A DNA stretch of 64,000 bases from a candidate division WWE3 bacterium RIFCSPHIGHO2_01_FULL_40_23 (GCA_001772615.1 MEUZ01000003.1:182422-246421), one strand, 5' to 3'. Counted from the first letter of the stretch, positions 24,131 through 39,432 are shown. Translations and numbers: made by a program. Notes: a model not told the origin generated them from the sequence alone.

Positions 24131-24595
24131 TTATACTGCGTAGTTTCCAAAGACAGGTTTTTCAATATCCAAAAGATCGGCCGCCTTCATCTTTATTGAT
24201 TTAGTATGAGATCCCGCGTTAAAGGCGATCATATCTTTTTCCTTAAAGATTTCGTCAAAATAAGATGCTAAGTTAAGAGCCGACCCCAATGGTGGAATCG
24301 CACCAACTTCAAGAGATGTGATTTCCTTTACCTCTTCCTTTGACGCCATTCTAAAATCCTTTATTCCAAAAGATTTCTTAAATATACTTGTATCAACTTT
24401 TTTATCTCCGGGCAACACCACAAGAATAGGTTTTTTATCGGCCATAAAAACCAAAGCTTTAGCACCCATTGATAAATTAGTGTCCCTTATTGATGATGCA
24501 TCAAGACTTGTGTAAACAGGTTTGTGCTCCAAAAGCTCATAAGAAACTCCCGACGATTTAAGAAGTGAAATTATCTTATCAAAAACCCCCATCAT
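24131..24595 (-). CDS. YbaK/ProX-type aminoacyl-tRNA trans-editing deacylase
   Basis: About 150 aa; KALVFMADKKPILVVLPGDKKVD pattern typical of YbaK/ProX deacylases. Confidence 0.6.
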   Translation of the reverse strand: MMGVFDKIISLLKSSGVSYELLEHKPVYTSLDASSIRDTNLSMGAKALVFMADKKPILVVLPGDKKVDTSIFKKSFGIKDFRMASKEEVKEITSLEVGAIPPLGSALNLASYFDEIFKEKDMIAFNAGSHTKSIKMKAADLLDIEKPVFGNYAV

Positions 24596-24690
24596 TTCCT
24601 GAACGAAACTGTTTCCAGATTGTCATTCCCGCGAAAGCGGGAATCTATTAATAGATCCTGAATTTAATTCAGGATGACTACGAATGGACT

Positions 24691-26088
24691 CTATGAACTA
24701 ATACTAAGCCCAAGCTCCGAAAGAAGCTTTGGATCTACATCAGAAGGCGCATCCATTACAGATGTTTTCCCGTTTCCCGTCATCGGAAAAGCAATTGTCT
24801 CTTTTAAAGATTCCTCATTTGAGGCAAGCATTACAAGCCTGTCAAGACCCAGAGCAATGCCTCCATGAGGTGGGGTACCAAGTTTAAACGCCTCAAACAT
24901 ATGCCCCACACTCCCTAAAATTTCCCCTTCCGAGTAACCCATTATTTTATACGTTGATCTTAAAACATCTTCCGTATAAGCCCTTAAGCTTCCTCCCCCA
25001 ACCTCATAACCGTTGCAAACAAGGTCATATTGCGTGGTAAGAATCTCCTCAATATGCTCACCTTTAAGATGCCATGGCAAATGCTCATCTATGGGTCTAC
25101 TGAAAGGGTTATGAGTAAAGGTATATCCGCTTTTGCTATCCTCCACTTCGGCTGCATCCTTGACATCAACTTTTTTAAAAAACGGGAACCTGTTCACCCA
25201 AACAAACGCAAGCACTCCGTCTTCTTTTTCCTTGTCAGTCCTTAGGTCAAATTTTTCACTTCCATATTTCTCAAGCGCCTCTTTATATGAGAAAACCTGA
25301 AACTTTTTGCTTTTTATTTTAGCTGAAAGAGACTCCACCGCACTTACAACCGCTTCTTCCACTACATGCATAACATCTTCCTCACTTACAAAGCTCATCT
25401 CAAGATCAAGCTGTGTAAATTCATATCCTCTATCGGATCTTGTGTCCTCGTCCCTTACGCATTTTGCTATCTGAAAGTATCTCTCAAAACCGGCTGTCAT
25501 TAACAGTTGTTTATACTGCTGCGGGCTTTGTGGAAGGGCATAAAATTTCCCTGGAAAATGCCTTGAAGGCACTATAAAATCCCTTGCCCCTTCCCTTGTT
25601 GATTTAGTGAGTATTGGAGTCTCCACCTCAACAAAATCCTTTTTAAACAAAGACTTTCGTATCCCTTCAATAAACTTGGACCTTAACCTTATAATTTTTT
25701 GCATTCTTTCTCTTCTTAAATCAAGATATCTGTATTTGAACCTTAACTCTTCTTTAATCTCATAACCTGTACTGTCAACCGGTATTGGAAGTTCCCCACA
25801 TTTATTTAAAAGCTTATAGCTACCAACCTCAACTTCAATCGTTCCAGTATCAATATTTGGATTTATAAGGTTTTGAGGTCTTTTCCTTACAATACCCATG
25901 ACTTCAACAACGGACTCGGTTGTAAGCTCTGACATCTTATCCTGCCCCACACACTGGATCTTGCCCGTAAAATCTCTTAAATCTACAAACGTTATCTTCC
26001 CATGATCTCTTTTCGTATCAACCCATCCATAAAGCTTAACCTCTTCACCAATTTTTAATAAAGTTTCATTTACCAAAGTTCTTTTCAT
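24691..26088 (-). CDS. aspS: aspartyl-tRNA synthetase, short archaeal/eukaryotic-type (likely non-discriminating)
   Basis: Class II motifs. Motif 2 reads FERYFQIAKCVRDEDTRSDRGYEFTQLDLEMSF, matching the AspRS FRDExxRxDRxPEFTQxDxEMSF pattern. N-terminal OB anticodon-binding fold. Only 465 aa, with no bacterial GAD insertion. Confidence 0.8.
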   Translation of the reverse strand: MKRTLVNETLLKIGEEVKLYGWVDTKRDHGKITFVDLRDFTGKIQCVGQDKMSELTTESVVEVMGIVRKRPQNLINPNIDTGTIEVEVGSYKLLNKCGELPIPVDSTGYEIKEELRFKYRYLDLRRERMQKIIRLRSKFIEGIRKSLFKKDFVEVETPILTKSTREGARDFIVPSRHFPGKFYALPQSPQQYKQLLMTAGFERYFQIAKCVRDEDTRSDRGYEFTQLDLEMSFVSEEDVMHVVEEAVVSAVESLSAKIKSKKFQVFSYKEALEKYGSEKFDLRTDKEKEDGVLAFVWVNRFPFFKKVDVKDAAEVEDSKSGYTFTHNPFSRPIDEHLPWHLKGEHIEEILTTQYDLVCNGYEVGGGSLRAYTEDVLRSTYKIMGYSEGEILGSVGHMFEAFKLGTPPHGGIALGLDRLVMLASNEESLKETIAFPMTGNGKTSVMDAPSDVDPKLLSELGLSISS

Positions 26089-26089
26089 A

Positions 26090-26335
26090 TCATTTATAAT
26101 AACCTTTTACCTCATAAAAACAAAAAATCCCGGATTTCTCCGAGAGGTTTTTCCGCGCTTTGGCGGATGAAAGGTGCCAACCAACCTTATACTTAATTTA
26201 CAGCTGTAACGGGCATTCCCGGCCTGTTCTAATTTCCGAATATCGGATTTCTTCAGACAGCTAAGAGGTGTCACATCCTCCTTAACGCTTTTTTAAATTA
26301 ACCAACTTATATACCCTTTTAAAAAATGTGTCAAG
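26090..26335 (-). promoter_or_regulatory. aspS promoter plus roughly 200-nt structured leader ending in an intrinsic terminator (attenuator); candidate T-box-like riboswitch
   Basis: On the minus strand: TTGACA, a 15-17 nt spacer, then TATATA near 26300-26333. Nested palindromes follow. A CCGTTA F-box-like motif is present. A ...AGGUUGGUUGGCACC... element resembles the T-box UGGNACC bulge, with N=C matching a G73 discriminator. The hairpin TCTCGG-AGAAAT-CCGGGA is followed by TTTTTTGTTTTT just upstream of the aspS start. Confidence 0.35.
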
Positions 26336-26388
26336 AACAACAAAATCCTCTAATTGACATTAATACATTCTGGTGCTAAAAATACTTT

Positions 26389-26634
26389 ATGCTTTCTAAA
26401 GAAGACATTAATCAAATAAAACTGATGATTGAAGAAATAGTTCCGCCTATGCTTAGGTTATCAGAGCAACGAACTATAAATCAGCTAAGAGCCGAGATAC
26501 GTTTACTAAACTCCGAGCTTTATAAAAAACTTCACAGCGAGTTTTCCATTGAAATAGGTAGAATCTGGGAAGAATTAAAAGATCTACGGATGCTACTGGA
26601 AACCCACATAGAACTTCACAACGGCACTAGTTGA
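26389..26634 (+). CDS. hypothetical small coiled-coil protein (81 aa)
   Basis: Intact ORF; no motif. Confidence 0.3.
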   Translation: MLSKEDINQIKLMIEEIVPPMLRLSEQRTINQLRAEIRLLNSELYKKLHSEFSIEIGRIWEELKDLRMLLETHIELHNGTS

Positions 26635-39104: not shown

Positions 39105-39432
39105 ACGGCAGGGCACACAAGCGGTTACCCGCCTACCGGCGGGAGGAAAGTCCAGACAGCATAGAGCAAGGGGTTGGAACGTAAGTTCCGACTGGCAACA
39201 GCTGGTACCGAGCTTTTGAAAAGAAGTCCGGACGGAAGGCGAATCGACGTCCTCCGAGATCCACAGAGACGAGCTTCCCCTAAGTCTTCGGATAAGGGGT
39301 AAGAGTGAAACGCGGAAATCCCACCCGCTGCAATCCACGATGTTACCGTTTAAGCCTGCTCGGCAAGGTACAAAGATGGAGCATAGAGAGATGCCGCATA
39401 AACAGAATCTGGCTTATGGATGCCCTGCACTT
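39105..39432 (+). ncRNA. rnpB: RNase P RNA (bacterial type, compact)
   Basis: P1 pairing GCAGGGCA (39108-39115) with TGCCCTGC (39421-39428). P3 hairpin CCCGCC-tacc-GGCGGG. P4 5' strand GGGAGGAAAGTCCAGAC. P4 3' strand ACAGAATCTGGCTTATGG. Confidence 0.8.

What the first reader, a model, noticed from the sequence alone, without database searches (positions are those of the whole stretch)
26090..26335. aspS leader with consensus promoter, nested palindromes and an intrinsic terminator: candidate T-box-type attenuator
Upstream of the minus-strand AspRS gene, TTGACA and TATATA hexamers sit about 230 nt before the start codon. The leader contains a two-tier hairpin (CTGT...TCCGA-tat-TCGGA...ACAG), a CCGTTA (F-box-like) element and an AGGUUGGUUGGCACC element. 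The last resembles the T-box UGGNACC bulge, with N=C complementary to a G73 discriminator as in tRNA-Asp and tRNA-Asn. A TCTCGG/CCGGGA hairpin followed by TTTTTTGTTTTT lies immediately before the RBS. Such a terminator inside a 5' UTR implies conditional read-through. If it is a T-box controlling a non-discriminating AspRS, the specifier (GAC versus AAC) would be informative.
Basis: partly seen in the sequence, partly recalled or inferred. Interest (0 to 1): 0.55.

Follow-up and report, generated by a model that had tools for sequence, protein, structure and literature searches.

The report
Short-stem T-box leader before aspS
The untranslated leader of this candidate-phyla bacterium's aspartyl-tRNA synthetase gene is a stripped-down T-box riboswitch, an RNA that reads uncharged tRNA-Asp. 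It pairs a very short tRNA-reading hairpin with a transcription terminator, a combination the field's reviews do not describe, though in this copy it is unclear how sensor and terminator are coupled.

Summary
Its T-box reading is right. Rfam's T-box model matches 26294-26158 end to end, but only at 20.3 bits (gathering score 93), because Stem I is reduced to a 6-bp hairpin.

That hairpin presents GAC-A (Asp codon plus purine) in its apical loop. It is followed by:
- a Stem II with S-turn-like motifs;
- the IIA/B pseudoknot with its F-box (CCGUUA);
- no Stem III;
- UGGCACC;
- a strong terminator.

Nineteen of 160 other Patescibacteria aspS loci carry homologous leaders. All score below Rfam's threshold (28-51 bits). 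Their Stem I helices covary around a YUGACA loop, 18 of the 19 have UGGC, and each has a hairpin plus U-run.

A profile built without the window finds this leader alone in the 64 kb (E 1.8e-9).

The architecture combines the sensor of the actinobacterial translational T-boxes with the terminator output of the classical ones.

One caveat applies to this copy. The predicted antiterminator abuts the terminator and shares only one nucleotide with it, and the two are predicted to coexist. Its eight closest AspRS relatives have no leader at all. Whether this copy still switches is therefore open.

The parts
26306..26334 (-). Sigma-70-type promoter: -35 TTGACA (26334-26329), 17-nt spacer, -10 TATAAG (26311-26306). 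The inferred transcript start is near 26299, only about 10 nt before the T-box.
   Evidence: Sequence. It is one of 6 such sites in the window against 1.4 in shuffles. The transcription start is inferred.
26260..26288 (-). Ultrashort Stem I. The base helix is GC (26288-87) with GC (26261-60). An asymmetric internal loop, GUUA/A, sits where the K-turn lies in classical T-boxes and has no tandem G.A pairs. The apical helix is 6 bp, AGGAGG (26282-77) with CCUCUU (26268-63). The apical loop is 8 nt, AUGUGACA (26276-69).
   Evidence: The cmscan alignment replaces 74 model positions by 6 nt. Homologous hairpins have covarying stems.
26269..26272 (-). Specifier GAC (Asp codon, 26272-26270) plus the conserved 3' purine A (26269). 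Inferred to pair with the GUC anticodon of tRNA-Asp.
   Evidence: The motif is UGACA in 17 of the 20 leaders including the window, UGACG in L014, and AAC-A in L035 and L040. The pairing with tRNA is inferred from the T-box mechanism (PMC7583486).
26224..26260 (-). Stem II: CUGU/ACAG base, internal loop CUGAAGAAA / AAUUAGA (S-turn-like), and distal hairpin UCCGA-UAU-UCGGA.
Evidence: L035, L040, L063 and L086 share the GAAGAA and AGUAGAAC motifs.
26203..26223 (-). Stem IIA/B pseudoknot element of 21 nt, GCCGGGAAUGCCCGUUACAGC, containing the F-box CCGUUA (26212-26207). Proposed pairs: IIA C21-G10, G20-C11, G19-C12; IIB G14-C03, C13-G04.
   Evidence: Nearly invariant in 13 leaders. IIA shows a C-G to U-A double change in L005 and L011. 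The F-box role is taken from PMC7583486. The IIB pairs are inferred.
26173..26187 (-). T-box sequence: A1 5' strand AGGUU (26187-83), three extra nt GGU from a GGUU duplication, and the bulge UGGCACC (26179-73). UGGC is inferred to pair with the 3' GCCA of uncharged tRNA-Asp.
   Evidence: 19 of 20 leaders have UGGC. L088 shares the GGUUGGCACC form.
26145..26167 (-). Remainder of the predicted antiterminator: an A2-like hairpin UCCGC-CAAAGC-GCGGA (26167-52) and the A1 3' strand AACCU (26149-45).
   Evidence: Constrained folds with the bulge held unpaired. Energy -9.4 kcal/mol. Only U26145 is shared with the terminator.
26116..26145 (-). Intrinsic terminator: UCUCGGA-GAAA-UCCGGGA (26145-26128) followed by UUUUUUGUUUUU (26127-26116), ending 27 nt before the start codon.
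   Evidence: Terminator scan. Hairpin alone -10.0 kcal/mol; -10.6 when the flanking A and U runs also pair.
24691..26088 (-). Regulated gene aspS: bacterial-type AspRS of 465 aa, lacking the GAD insertion. It is followed by a free-standing YbaK/tRNA_edit-domain gene (24595-24131) and a Peptidase_S11 gene (24127-23129).
   Evidence: Pfam and NCBIfam. The same gene order occurs in relatives.

Best explanation
The aspS leader is a divergent T-box riboswitch.

Shown here:
- It has T-box sequence motifs in the T-box order.
- It belongs to a family of leaders conserved upstream of aspS in Patescibacteria.
- Stem I of that family is a short hairpin with covarying stems that displays an Asp codon in its apical loop.
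- The leader ends in an intrinsic terminator.

Inferred mechanism: the anticodon GUC of tRNA-Asp pairs with GAC-A in the Stem I loop. Stem II (S-turn) and the IIA/B pseudoknot clamp that duplex, as in the actinobacterial ileS T-boxes, and there is no contact to the tRNA elbow. If the tRNA is uncharged, its 3' GCCA pairs with UGGC of the bulge and stabilises the antiterminator helix (AGGUU/AACCU). RNA polymerase then reads through the terminator into aspS and the YbaK-like gene. If the tRNA is charged, the helix is not stabilised and transcription stops at 26127-26116.

The last coupling step is clear in homologs but only weakly supported in this copy.
For: - RF00230 aligns over all 219 model positions at 26294-26158, with Stem I cut from 74 model positions to 6 nt.
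- 19 of 160 other Patescibacteria aspS loci have homologous leaders. Of the 13 of these scanned against Rfam, 7 matched RF00230, at 28-51 bits with E values of 3e-8 to 0.02.
- An HMM built without the window hits only 26275-26172 in 64 kb (E 1.8e-9).
- Stem I covaries. All 5 of its pairs show double changes. The covariation score is 0.311, against 0.091 in shuffles (0 of 500 reach it) and at most 0.115 in slid controls. Stems of >=4 bp occur in 18 of 20 real leaders against 24% of chimeric controls.
- The loop motif is YUGACA and the bulge is UGGC in 19 of 20 leaders.
- The IIA/B element with its F-box is nearly invariant.
- In 11 homologs the A1 3' strand lies almost entirely inside the terminator 5' strand: all of it in 7 homologs, all but one nucleotide in the other 4.
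- A strong promoter sits directly upstream, leaving no room for a long Stem I.
- The genome rarely uses Shine-Dalgarno sequences, so control at the level of transcription is the plausible output.
Against: - The Rfam score is far below gathering.
- In this copy the predicted A1 shares only U26145 with the terminator. A1 plus a 6-bp terminator is predicted to be the most stable state (-18.2 kcal/mol, against -17.5 for the hairpin at 26167-26152 plus the full terminator). Nothing in the secondary structure therefore makes them exclusive.
- The fully exclusive alternative pairing is weak, about -3 to -4 kcal/mol.
- This copy deviates from the family at several points: no G.A pairs at the K-turn position, U for the bulged G of the S-turn, a GGUU duplication before UGGC, and no A2 helix adjacent to ACC.
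- The eight closest AspRS relatives (68-71% identity) have no leader.
- No tRNA-Asp gene is available to confirm GUC and G73.
Confidence: 0.62

Rival explanations
1. A decoupled or decaying T-box. The sensor domain is inherited from a functional T-box, but in this lineage it no longer controls the terminator. The terminator then acts as a constitutive, leaky attenuator, a step on the way to the leaderless state seen in the closest relatives.
For: - The antiterminator and terminator are predicted to coexist, and they overlap by 1 nt, against whole-strand overlap in 11 homologs.
- There are several departures from family consensus: K-turn position, S-turn G to U, GGUU duplication.
- This is the lowest Rfam score among the leaders that matched (20.3 against 28-51).
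- All eight closest AspRS relatives lack a leader. Five of them have a gap of only 22-28 nt to the upstream gene; the other three have longer upstream regions with no T-box motif.
Against: - A 7-bp GNRA-capped hairpin with a 12-nt U-tract in front of an essential, presumably single-copy gene should be selected against if it could not be bypassed.
- The specifier, F-box, UGGCACC and the promoter are all intact.
- L084 shares the non-K-turn loop and L088 shares GGUUGGCACC, and both have canonical switches. Those deviations are therefore lineage variants, not necessarily decay.
Confidence: 0.27
2. The output is translational. AACCUC (26149-26144) mimics the anti-Shine-Dalgarno sequence and would sequester GAGGU (26113-26109) or AAGGUU (26106-26101) unless it is captured by the T-box A1 strand, as in the actinobacterial ileS T-boxes.
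For: ACCUC/GAGGU and AACCU/AGGUU are complementary, and the A1 5' strand AAGGUU is repeated before the start codon.
Against: - GAGGU lies 20 nt and AAGG about 13 nt from the AUG.
- Most genes in the window have no Shine-Dalgarno sequence at all.
- A strong terminator lies between the partners.
- All homologs have a hairpin plus U-run upstream of their ribosome-binding site.
Confidence: 0.05
3. Chance resemblance: an ordinary 5' UTR with unrelated hairpins and a terminator, not a tRNA-binding RNA.
For: Rfam finds no match at the gathering threshold. The whole-leader fold is not unusually stable (z = -1.06).
Against: - The model aligns end to end with motifs in the right order.
- A profile built without the window hits it at E 1.8e-9.
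- Stem I covaries.
- UGGC is kept in 19 of 20 leaders.
Confidence: 0.03

Closest known systems
Classical (class I, transcriptional) T-box leaders, Rfam RF00230, e.g. Bacillus subtilis tyrS and glyQS
   Same: - Upstream of an aminoacyl-tRNA synthetase gene.
- The specifier codon matches the enzyme's amino acid and is followed by a purine.
- Stem II plus the IIA/B element with the F-box.
- UGGN-ACC bulge.
- The output is an intrinsic terminator.
- In the homologs, A1 and A2 3' strands double as the terminator 5' strand.
   Different: - There is no long Stem I: no specifier internal loop, no distal AG bulge or distal loop forming the interdigitated T-loop platform that stacks on the tRNA elbow. 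The review PMC7583486 describes that platform as essential in transcriptional T-boxes.
- No K-turn G.A pairs.
- No Stem III.
- Scores are 20-51 bits against a gathering score of 93.
- The host phylum is Patescibacteria.
Translational (class II) ileS T-boxes of Actinobacteria with 'ultrashort' Stem I (Mycobacterium tuberculosis, Nocardia farcinica; Sherwood et al. 2015, as cited in PMC7583486)
   Same: - The specifier sits in the apical loop of a short Stem I hairpin.
- It relies on the Stem II S-turn and the IIA/B pseudoknot, not on the elbow contact.
- The T-box bulge is the same.
   Different: - The output here is a terminator with a U-tract, not a Shine-Dalgarno sequestrator.
- The host hardly uses Shine-Dalgarno sequences.
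- The regulated gene is aspS with a GAC specifier, not ileS.
- Stem III is absent here, whereas those T-boxes often carry insertions in Stem III and A2.
- TBDB searched its class II model only in Actinobacteria (PMC7778990).
Asp/Asn-specific T-boxes of Firmicutes (e.g. the hisS-aspS operon of B. subtilis; from my own knowledge, not checked here)
   Same: The regulated function is the same (AspRS) and the specifier logic is the same (GAC or AAC, with UGGC for a G73 tRNA).
   Different: Those have full-length Stem I and Stem III and reach Rfam's threshold.

Membership tests
T-box riboswitch (any class) | A specifier codon for the amino acid of the regulated gene, followed by a conserved purine and displayed in Stem I | tested here: met
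   GAC-A lies at 26272-26269 in the Stem I loop upstream of AspRS. The motif is conserved as UGACA in 17 of 20 leaders, and the flanking stems covary.
T-box riboswitch (any class) | A T-box sequence with the 7-nt bulge UGGNACC between helices A1 and A2 | tested here: inconclusive
   UGGCACC is present at 26179-26173. However, the best predicted A1 leaves 3 extra nt before the bulge and 5 after it. The helix that is adjacent to the bulge (UUGGU/GCCAA, the cmscan alignment) has no A2. Homologs have the canonical form.
T-box riboswitch (any class) | N of UGGN is complementary to the discriminator base of the cognate tRNA | not testable with these tools
   N is C in 19 of 20 leaders, which fits G73 of bacterial tRNA-Asp and tRNA-Asn (established knowledge). 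No tRNA-Asp or tRNA-Asn gene is present in the window or in the roughly 170 loci held.
T-box riboswitch (any class) | Stem II with an S-turn, and the Stem IIA/B pseudoknot carrying the F-box | tested here: met
   GAAGAA / AUUAGAAC lie in the Stem II internal loop. The 21-nt element GCCGGGAAUGCCCGUUACAGC contains CCGUUA. It is nearly invariant in 13 leaders, with one compensatory C-G to U-A change. The S-turn has U where the consensus has the bulged G.
Class I transcriptional T-box (RF00230) | A score at or above the Rfam gathering threshold | tested here: not met
   20.3 bits against 93. Homologs score 28-51 bits.
Class I transcriptional T-box (RF00230) | A long Stem I with K-turn, specifier internal loop and distal platform for the tRNA elbow | tested here: not met
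   Only 29 nt lie between the base-helix strands (26288-26260). 74 model positions are replaced by 6 nt. The promoter -10 box ends at 26306, so no further upstream RNA is available.
Class I transcriptional T-box (RF00230) | An intrinsic terminator mutually exclusive with the antiterminator | tested here: inconclusive
   The terminator is present. The antiterminator shares 1 nt with it and the two are predicted to coexist. The feature is met in 11 homologs.
Class I transcriptional T-box (RF00230) | Stem III preceded by a purine string | tested here: not met
   Only 15 nt (UGUAAAUUAAGUAUA, 26202-26188) separate the pseudoknot from A1. cmscan deletes Stem III. A conserved AAGU remains.
Class II translational T-box (actinobacterial ileS type) | An ultrashort Stem I with the specifier in the apical loop | tested here: met
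   The feature is described in PMC7583486.
Class II translational T-box (actinobacterial ileS type) | A Shine-Dalgarno sequestrator / anti-sequestrator as the expression platform | tested here: not met
   The platform is a hairpin plus a 12-nt U-tract. There is no well-placed Shine-Dalgarno sequence, and the genome rarely uses one.

The most novel reading that the evidence does not exclude
Patescibacteria (the candidate phyla radiation) carry an undescribed class of T-box riboswitches that terminate transcription although Stem I is only an anticodon-arm-like hairpin, with a 5-9-nt loop (commonly CUGACAA or CUGACAC). These leaders sense tRNA-Asp without any elbow contact. In some lineages they appear to sense tRNA-Asn, consistent with a non-discriminating AspRS. 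Some members (L037, L080, L107) also lack Stem II and IIA/B. This would contradict the current view that co-transcriptional T-boxes need the long Stem I platform for fast tRNA capture.
Probability: 0.5. Interest if true: 0.7.

Novelty: new variant of a known kind. Interest (0 to 1): 0.58.

Why it matters
- The 2020 review PMC7583486 states that transcriptional T-boxes require the long Stem I elbow-binding platform, and that short Stem I goes with translational control, where there is no time limit for tRNA binding. A terminator-coupled family with an apical-loop specifier would test that kinetic argument directly.
- The family would extend T-boxes to the candidate phyla radiation. I found no paper linking the two in the held library.
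- Standard annotation misses these leaders, because all score below Rfam's threshold.
- The leaders are small, about 150-180 nt and as few as about 50 nt from Stem I to the T-box. That makes them attractive minimal tRNA sensors.
- The GAC/AAC alternation upstream of orthologous AspRS genes offers a read-out of which tRNA limits growth where Asn-tRNA is made through AspRS.

Tried and rejected
- Rfam at gathering threshold on the whole window found no T-box. The permissive scan of the whole window lost the hit to E-value scaling.
- A search for other T-box-like sites in the window ([AG]G[GT]TGGNACC followed by a T-run) found none besides aspS. The CM found only a spurious 11-bit hit.
- An exclusive antiterminator was sought by duplex search. 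UUUCAUCCG (26172-64) pairs with CGGAGAAA (26142-35), and GGUU pairs with GGCC of the terminator 3' strand. This gives a canonical topology that consumes the whole terminator, but it is worth only -3 to -4 kcal/mol and competes with a local -7.5 kcal/mol hairpin. It was rejected as unlikely.
- Other repeats were noted but give no better alternative: CCGGGA of IIA and of the terminator, ACCUCU of Stem I and of the terminator flank, and AGAAAUCCG occurring twice.
- Shine-Dalgarno sequestration was rejected.
- A chimeric-control test for A1 covariation was uninformative, because A1 is purine-rich and pairs with any U-run.
- MAFFT on the isolated hairpins did not give a structural register. A CM alignment was used instead.
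- No tRNA-Asp or tRNA-Asn gene was found in any held locus.
- Closer relatives carrying the leader were sought through eight of the most similar AspRS proteins. None has one.
- The 81-aa ORF next to the leader has no homologs beyond a 99% copy, and that 669-nt contig stops before the T-box.
- Sherwood et al. 2015 could not be read.

Full report
**Observation**

- -35 box TTGACA at 26334-26329.
- TATATA at 26313-26308. The overlapping TATAAG at 26311-26306 gives the canonical 17-nt spacer.
- The nested hairpin CUGU..UCCGA-UAU-UCGGA..ACAG at 26260-26224.
- CCGUUA at 26212-26207.
- AGGUUGGUUGGCACC at 26187-26173.
- The hairpin UCUCGGA-GAAA-UCCGGGA at 26145-26128, followed by UUUUUUGUUUUU at 26127-26116.

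The terminator scan calls the hairpin. A perfect TTGACA with a >=5/6 -10 box occurs six times in the window against 1.4 in shuffles, and this site is one of the six.

The gene is a bacterial-type AspRS (NCBIfam aspS, 553 bits) that lacks the GAD insertion and is 465 aa long. Its homologs are from Patescibacteria, with names such as WWE3, Levyibacteria and Saccharimonadales.

**Is it a T-box?**

At Rfam's gathering thresholds the window has no T-box. In the permissive mode RF00230 matches 26294-26158 over all 219 model positions, at 20.3 bits (gathering 93; E 0.032 for the 801-nt search). The alignment explains the low score. Stem I is cut from 74 model positions to 6 nt and Stem III is deleted. 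The Stem I base, the IIA hairpin with CCGUUA, and the GGUGGNACC box all align.

**Comparative evidence**

I fetched 160 aspS loci of Patescibacteria. Nineteen carry UGGNACC 70-290 nt upstream of aspS, followed by a hairpin and a U-run: L005, L007, L011, L012, L014, L017, L019, L025, L035, L037, L040, L063, L080, L084, L085, L086, L088, L100 and L107.

Of the 13 of these leaders scanned against Rfam, 7 matched the T-box model, at 28-51 bits with E values of 3e-8 to 0.02. All are below the gathering score, so routine annotation would miss every one.

A profile HMM built from 12 of these leaders, without the window, finds exactly one place in the 64-kb window: 26275-26172, E 1.8e-9. Neither the HMM, nor a covariance model built from these leaders (R1, made for the Stem I analysis below), nor a motif scan finds a second such leader in the window or in the flanks of the loci.

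**Anatomy**

All coordinates were verified.

- A 2-bp base helix: GC 26288-87 with GC 26261-60.
- An asymmetric internal loop GUUA/A, sitting where classical T-boxes have the K-turn but without the tandem G.A pairs.
- A 6-bp helix: AGGAGG 26282-77 with CCUCUU 26268-63.
- An 8-nt apical loop, AUGUGACA. GAC (26272-70) is the Asp codon and A26269 is the conserved purine.

In the homologs the same hairpin has unrelated stem sequences around a YUGACA loop. Examples are GACUGU-UGACA-ACAGUC, AGCGG-CUGACA-CCGCU and GUCCA-UUGACAC-UGGAC.
- On a covariance-model alignment all five Stem I pairs show changes on both sides. The covariation score is 0.311, against 0.091 in shuffles (0 of 500 reach it) and at most 0.115 when partners are slid.
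- In my own control, stems of >=4 bp occur in 18 of 20 leaders against 24% of 380 chimeras.

The -10 box ends at 26306, so the transcript cannot hold a longer Stem I.

Many homologs have a 7-nt loop, CUGACAA or CUGACAC. This looks like an anticodon loop, so the contact with the tRNA would be a loop-loop kiss (inference).

*Stem II (26260-26224).* It carries GAAGAA on the 5' side and AUUAGAAC on the 3' side of its internal loop. L035, L040, L063 and L086 have GAAGAA and AGUAGAAC, the S-turn signature of T-boxes. The window has U where the bulged G is expected.

*IIA/B element.* The 21-nt element GCCGGGAAUGCCCGUUACAGC (26223-26203) is the IIA/B pseudoknot with its F-box. It is nearly invariant in 13 leaders, with one C-G to U-A compensatory change.

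*Stem III.* It is absent. Fifteen nucleotides with a conserved AAGU lead to the T-box.

*T-box bulge.* N of UGGN is C in 19 of 20 leaders. This fits the G73 discriminator of bacterial tRNA-Asp and tRNA-Asn (established knowledge). I could not check it, because no tRNA-Asp gene is in the window or in any held locus.

**The expression platform**

In 11 homologs the antiterminator is canonical: A1, a 7-nt bulge, then A2. In 7 of them the A1 3' strand lies entirely inside the 5' strand of a long terminator, and in the other 4 all but one nucleotide of it does. The two structures therefore exclude each other.

The window differs.
- A GGUU duplication precedes UGGC. L088 has the single-copy form GGUUGGCACC with a canonical switch.
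- With the bulge held unpaired, the best fold is A1 = AGGUU (26187-83) with AACCU (26149-45), plus an A2-like hairpin UCCGC/GCGGA (26167-52), at -9.4 kcal/mol.
- That A1 shares only U26145 with the terminator. A1 plus a 6-bp terminator (-18.2 kcal/mol) is predicted to be as good as or better than the hairpin at 26167-26152 plus the full terminator (-17.5 kcal/mol).
- The helix that cmscan places next to the bulge (UUGGU/GCCAA) competes with the hairpin at 26167-26152, not with the terminator.
- A fully exclusive alternative exists: UUUCAUCCG with CGGAGAAA, plus GGUU with GGCC. It is worth only -3 to -4 kcal/mol.

The sensor is therefore well supported, but how it is coupled to the terminator is not evident in this copy. 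Losing the closing U-A pair and the flanking A/U extension, or steric hindrance by a tRNA-bound helix that abuts the hairpin, could lower termination. This is speculation.

**Translational control is unlikely**

Most genes in the window have no Shine-Dalgarno sequence. The GAGGU and AAGG boxes before aspS lie 20 and about 13 nt from the AUG.

**Distribution**

The eight closest AspRS relatives I could place on contigs (68-71% identity, same gene order) have no leader. Five of them have only 22-28 nt between aspS and the upstream gene; the other three have longer upstream regions with no T-box motif. The window's gap also holds an orphan 81-aa ORF on the other strand. The leader is therefore patchy: about 12% of loci, spread over groups named Dojkabacteria, Nomurabacteria, WWE3-like and others. 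Either it has been lost repeatedly or it moves between lineages.

**Comparison with known systems**

- It says that most translational T-boxes have intermediate or 'ultrashort' Stem I lacking the elbow-binding platform.
- TBDB applied its short-Stem-I model only to Actinobacteria and to Rfam hits (PMC7778990).

The leaders described here combine the class II sensor (apical specifier, S-turn Stem II, IIA/B) with the class I output (terminator). They sit in a phylum for which I found no T-box paper in the held library. That library is incomplete, and Sherwood et al. 2015 could not be read.

I therefore file this as a new variant of a known kind. It works like a T-box and is homologous to T-boxes. 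It fails the membership criteria of RF00230 (score, long Stem I, Stem III) and that of the translational class (Shine-Dalgarno sequestrator).

**Verdict**

| Claim | Estimated probability |
|---|---|
| The leader is a T-box relative | about 0.93 |
| This copy still works as a tRNA-Asp-dependent transcription attenuator | about 0.6 |
| Main rival: a decoupled relic with a leaky terminator | about 0.27 |

Its question on the specifier is answered: GAC here, and AAC in L035 and L040, whose genes are also bacterial-type AspRS.

Noticed in passing
L035:2287-2300 and L040:2216-2231 (Stem I hairpins of aspS leaders): Two orthologous aspS leaders carry AAC (Asn) instead of GAC at the specifier position: GCCG-AUAACA-CGGC and UGGUG-AAAACA-CACCA. 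Both genes score as bacterial-type AspRS. L040 also has UGGUACC, which would imply an A73 tRNA. This suggests that tRNA-Asn is sensed where a non-discriminating AspRS makes Asp-tRNA(Asn).
   Followed up: partly
L037:2303-2385, L080:2354-2409, L107:1322-1394: These aspS leaders have the GAC hairpin and a canonical T-box/terminator but no Stem II or IIA/B. Only 49-76 nt separate Stem I from UGGCACC. If functional they would be exceptionally small T-boxes.
   Followed up: no
L025:2418-2471: The terminator appears to be formed by a second copy of GGUGGCACC pairing with the T-box sequence itself (one G.G mismatch), followed by a U-run. This would occlude the tRNA-binding bulge directly, unlike the usual strand-sharing design.
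   Followed up: no
window 24131-26088 (-): The AspRS is bacterial-type but lacks the GAD insertion domain (465 aa; NCBIfam aligns it in two stretches). The next gene is a free-standing YbaK/tRNA_edit-domain protein of 154 aa. In some homologs the two are fused into one protein of 616-625 aa (P0092, P0103, P0105). This hints at a dedicated trans-editing partner of AspRS in these bacteria.
   Followed up: partly
window 26354-26634 (+): An orphan 81-aa coiled-coil-like ORF (26389-26634) sits between the M20 peptidase gene and the aspS promoter, with its own TTGACA-18-AAAAAT promoter divergent from the aspS promoter. It has no Pfam hit and no homolog beyond a 99% identical copy. It is absent from the closest relatives, where the two flanking genes abut.
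   Followed up: partly
window 39108-39432 (+): Bacterial RNase P class A RNA matches end to end at 71.4 bits (E 1e-19), below Rfam's gathering score of 100. This is probably a reduced RNase P RNA.
   Followed up: no
window, whole: Most ORFs of >=150 aa have no Shine-Dalgarno sequence within 22 nt of the start. Several have a TATAAT-like box immediately upstream, suggesting frequent leaderless or Shine-Dalgarno-independent initiation. Related lineages (L084-L086) have strong AGGAGG boxes.
   Followed up: partly
window 26251-26243 and 26139-26131; 26222-26217 and 26133-26128 (-): There are internal repeats within the leader. AGAAAUCCG occurs in Stem II and again in the terminator. CCGGGA occurs in IIA and as the terminator 3' strand. 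These may be chance or a trace of how the terminator arose. No better alternative pairing came from them.
   Followed up: partly
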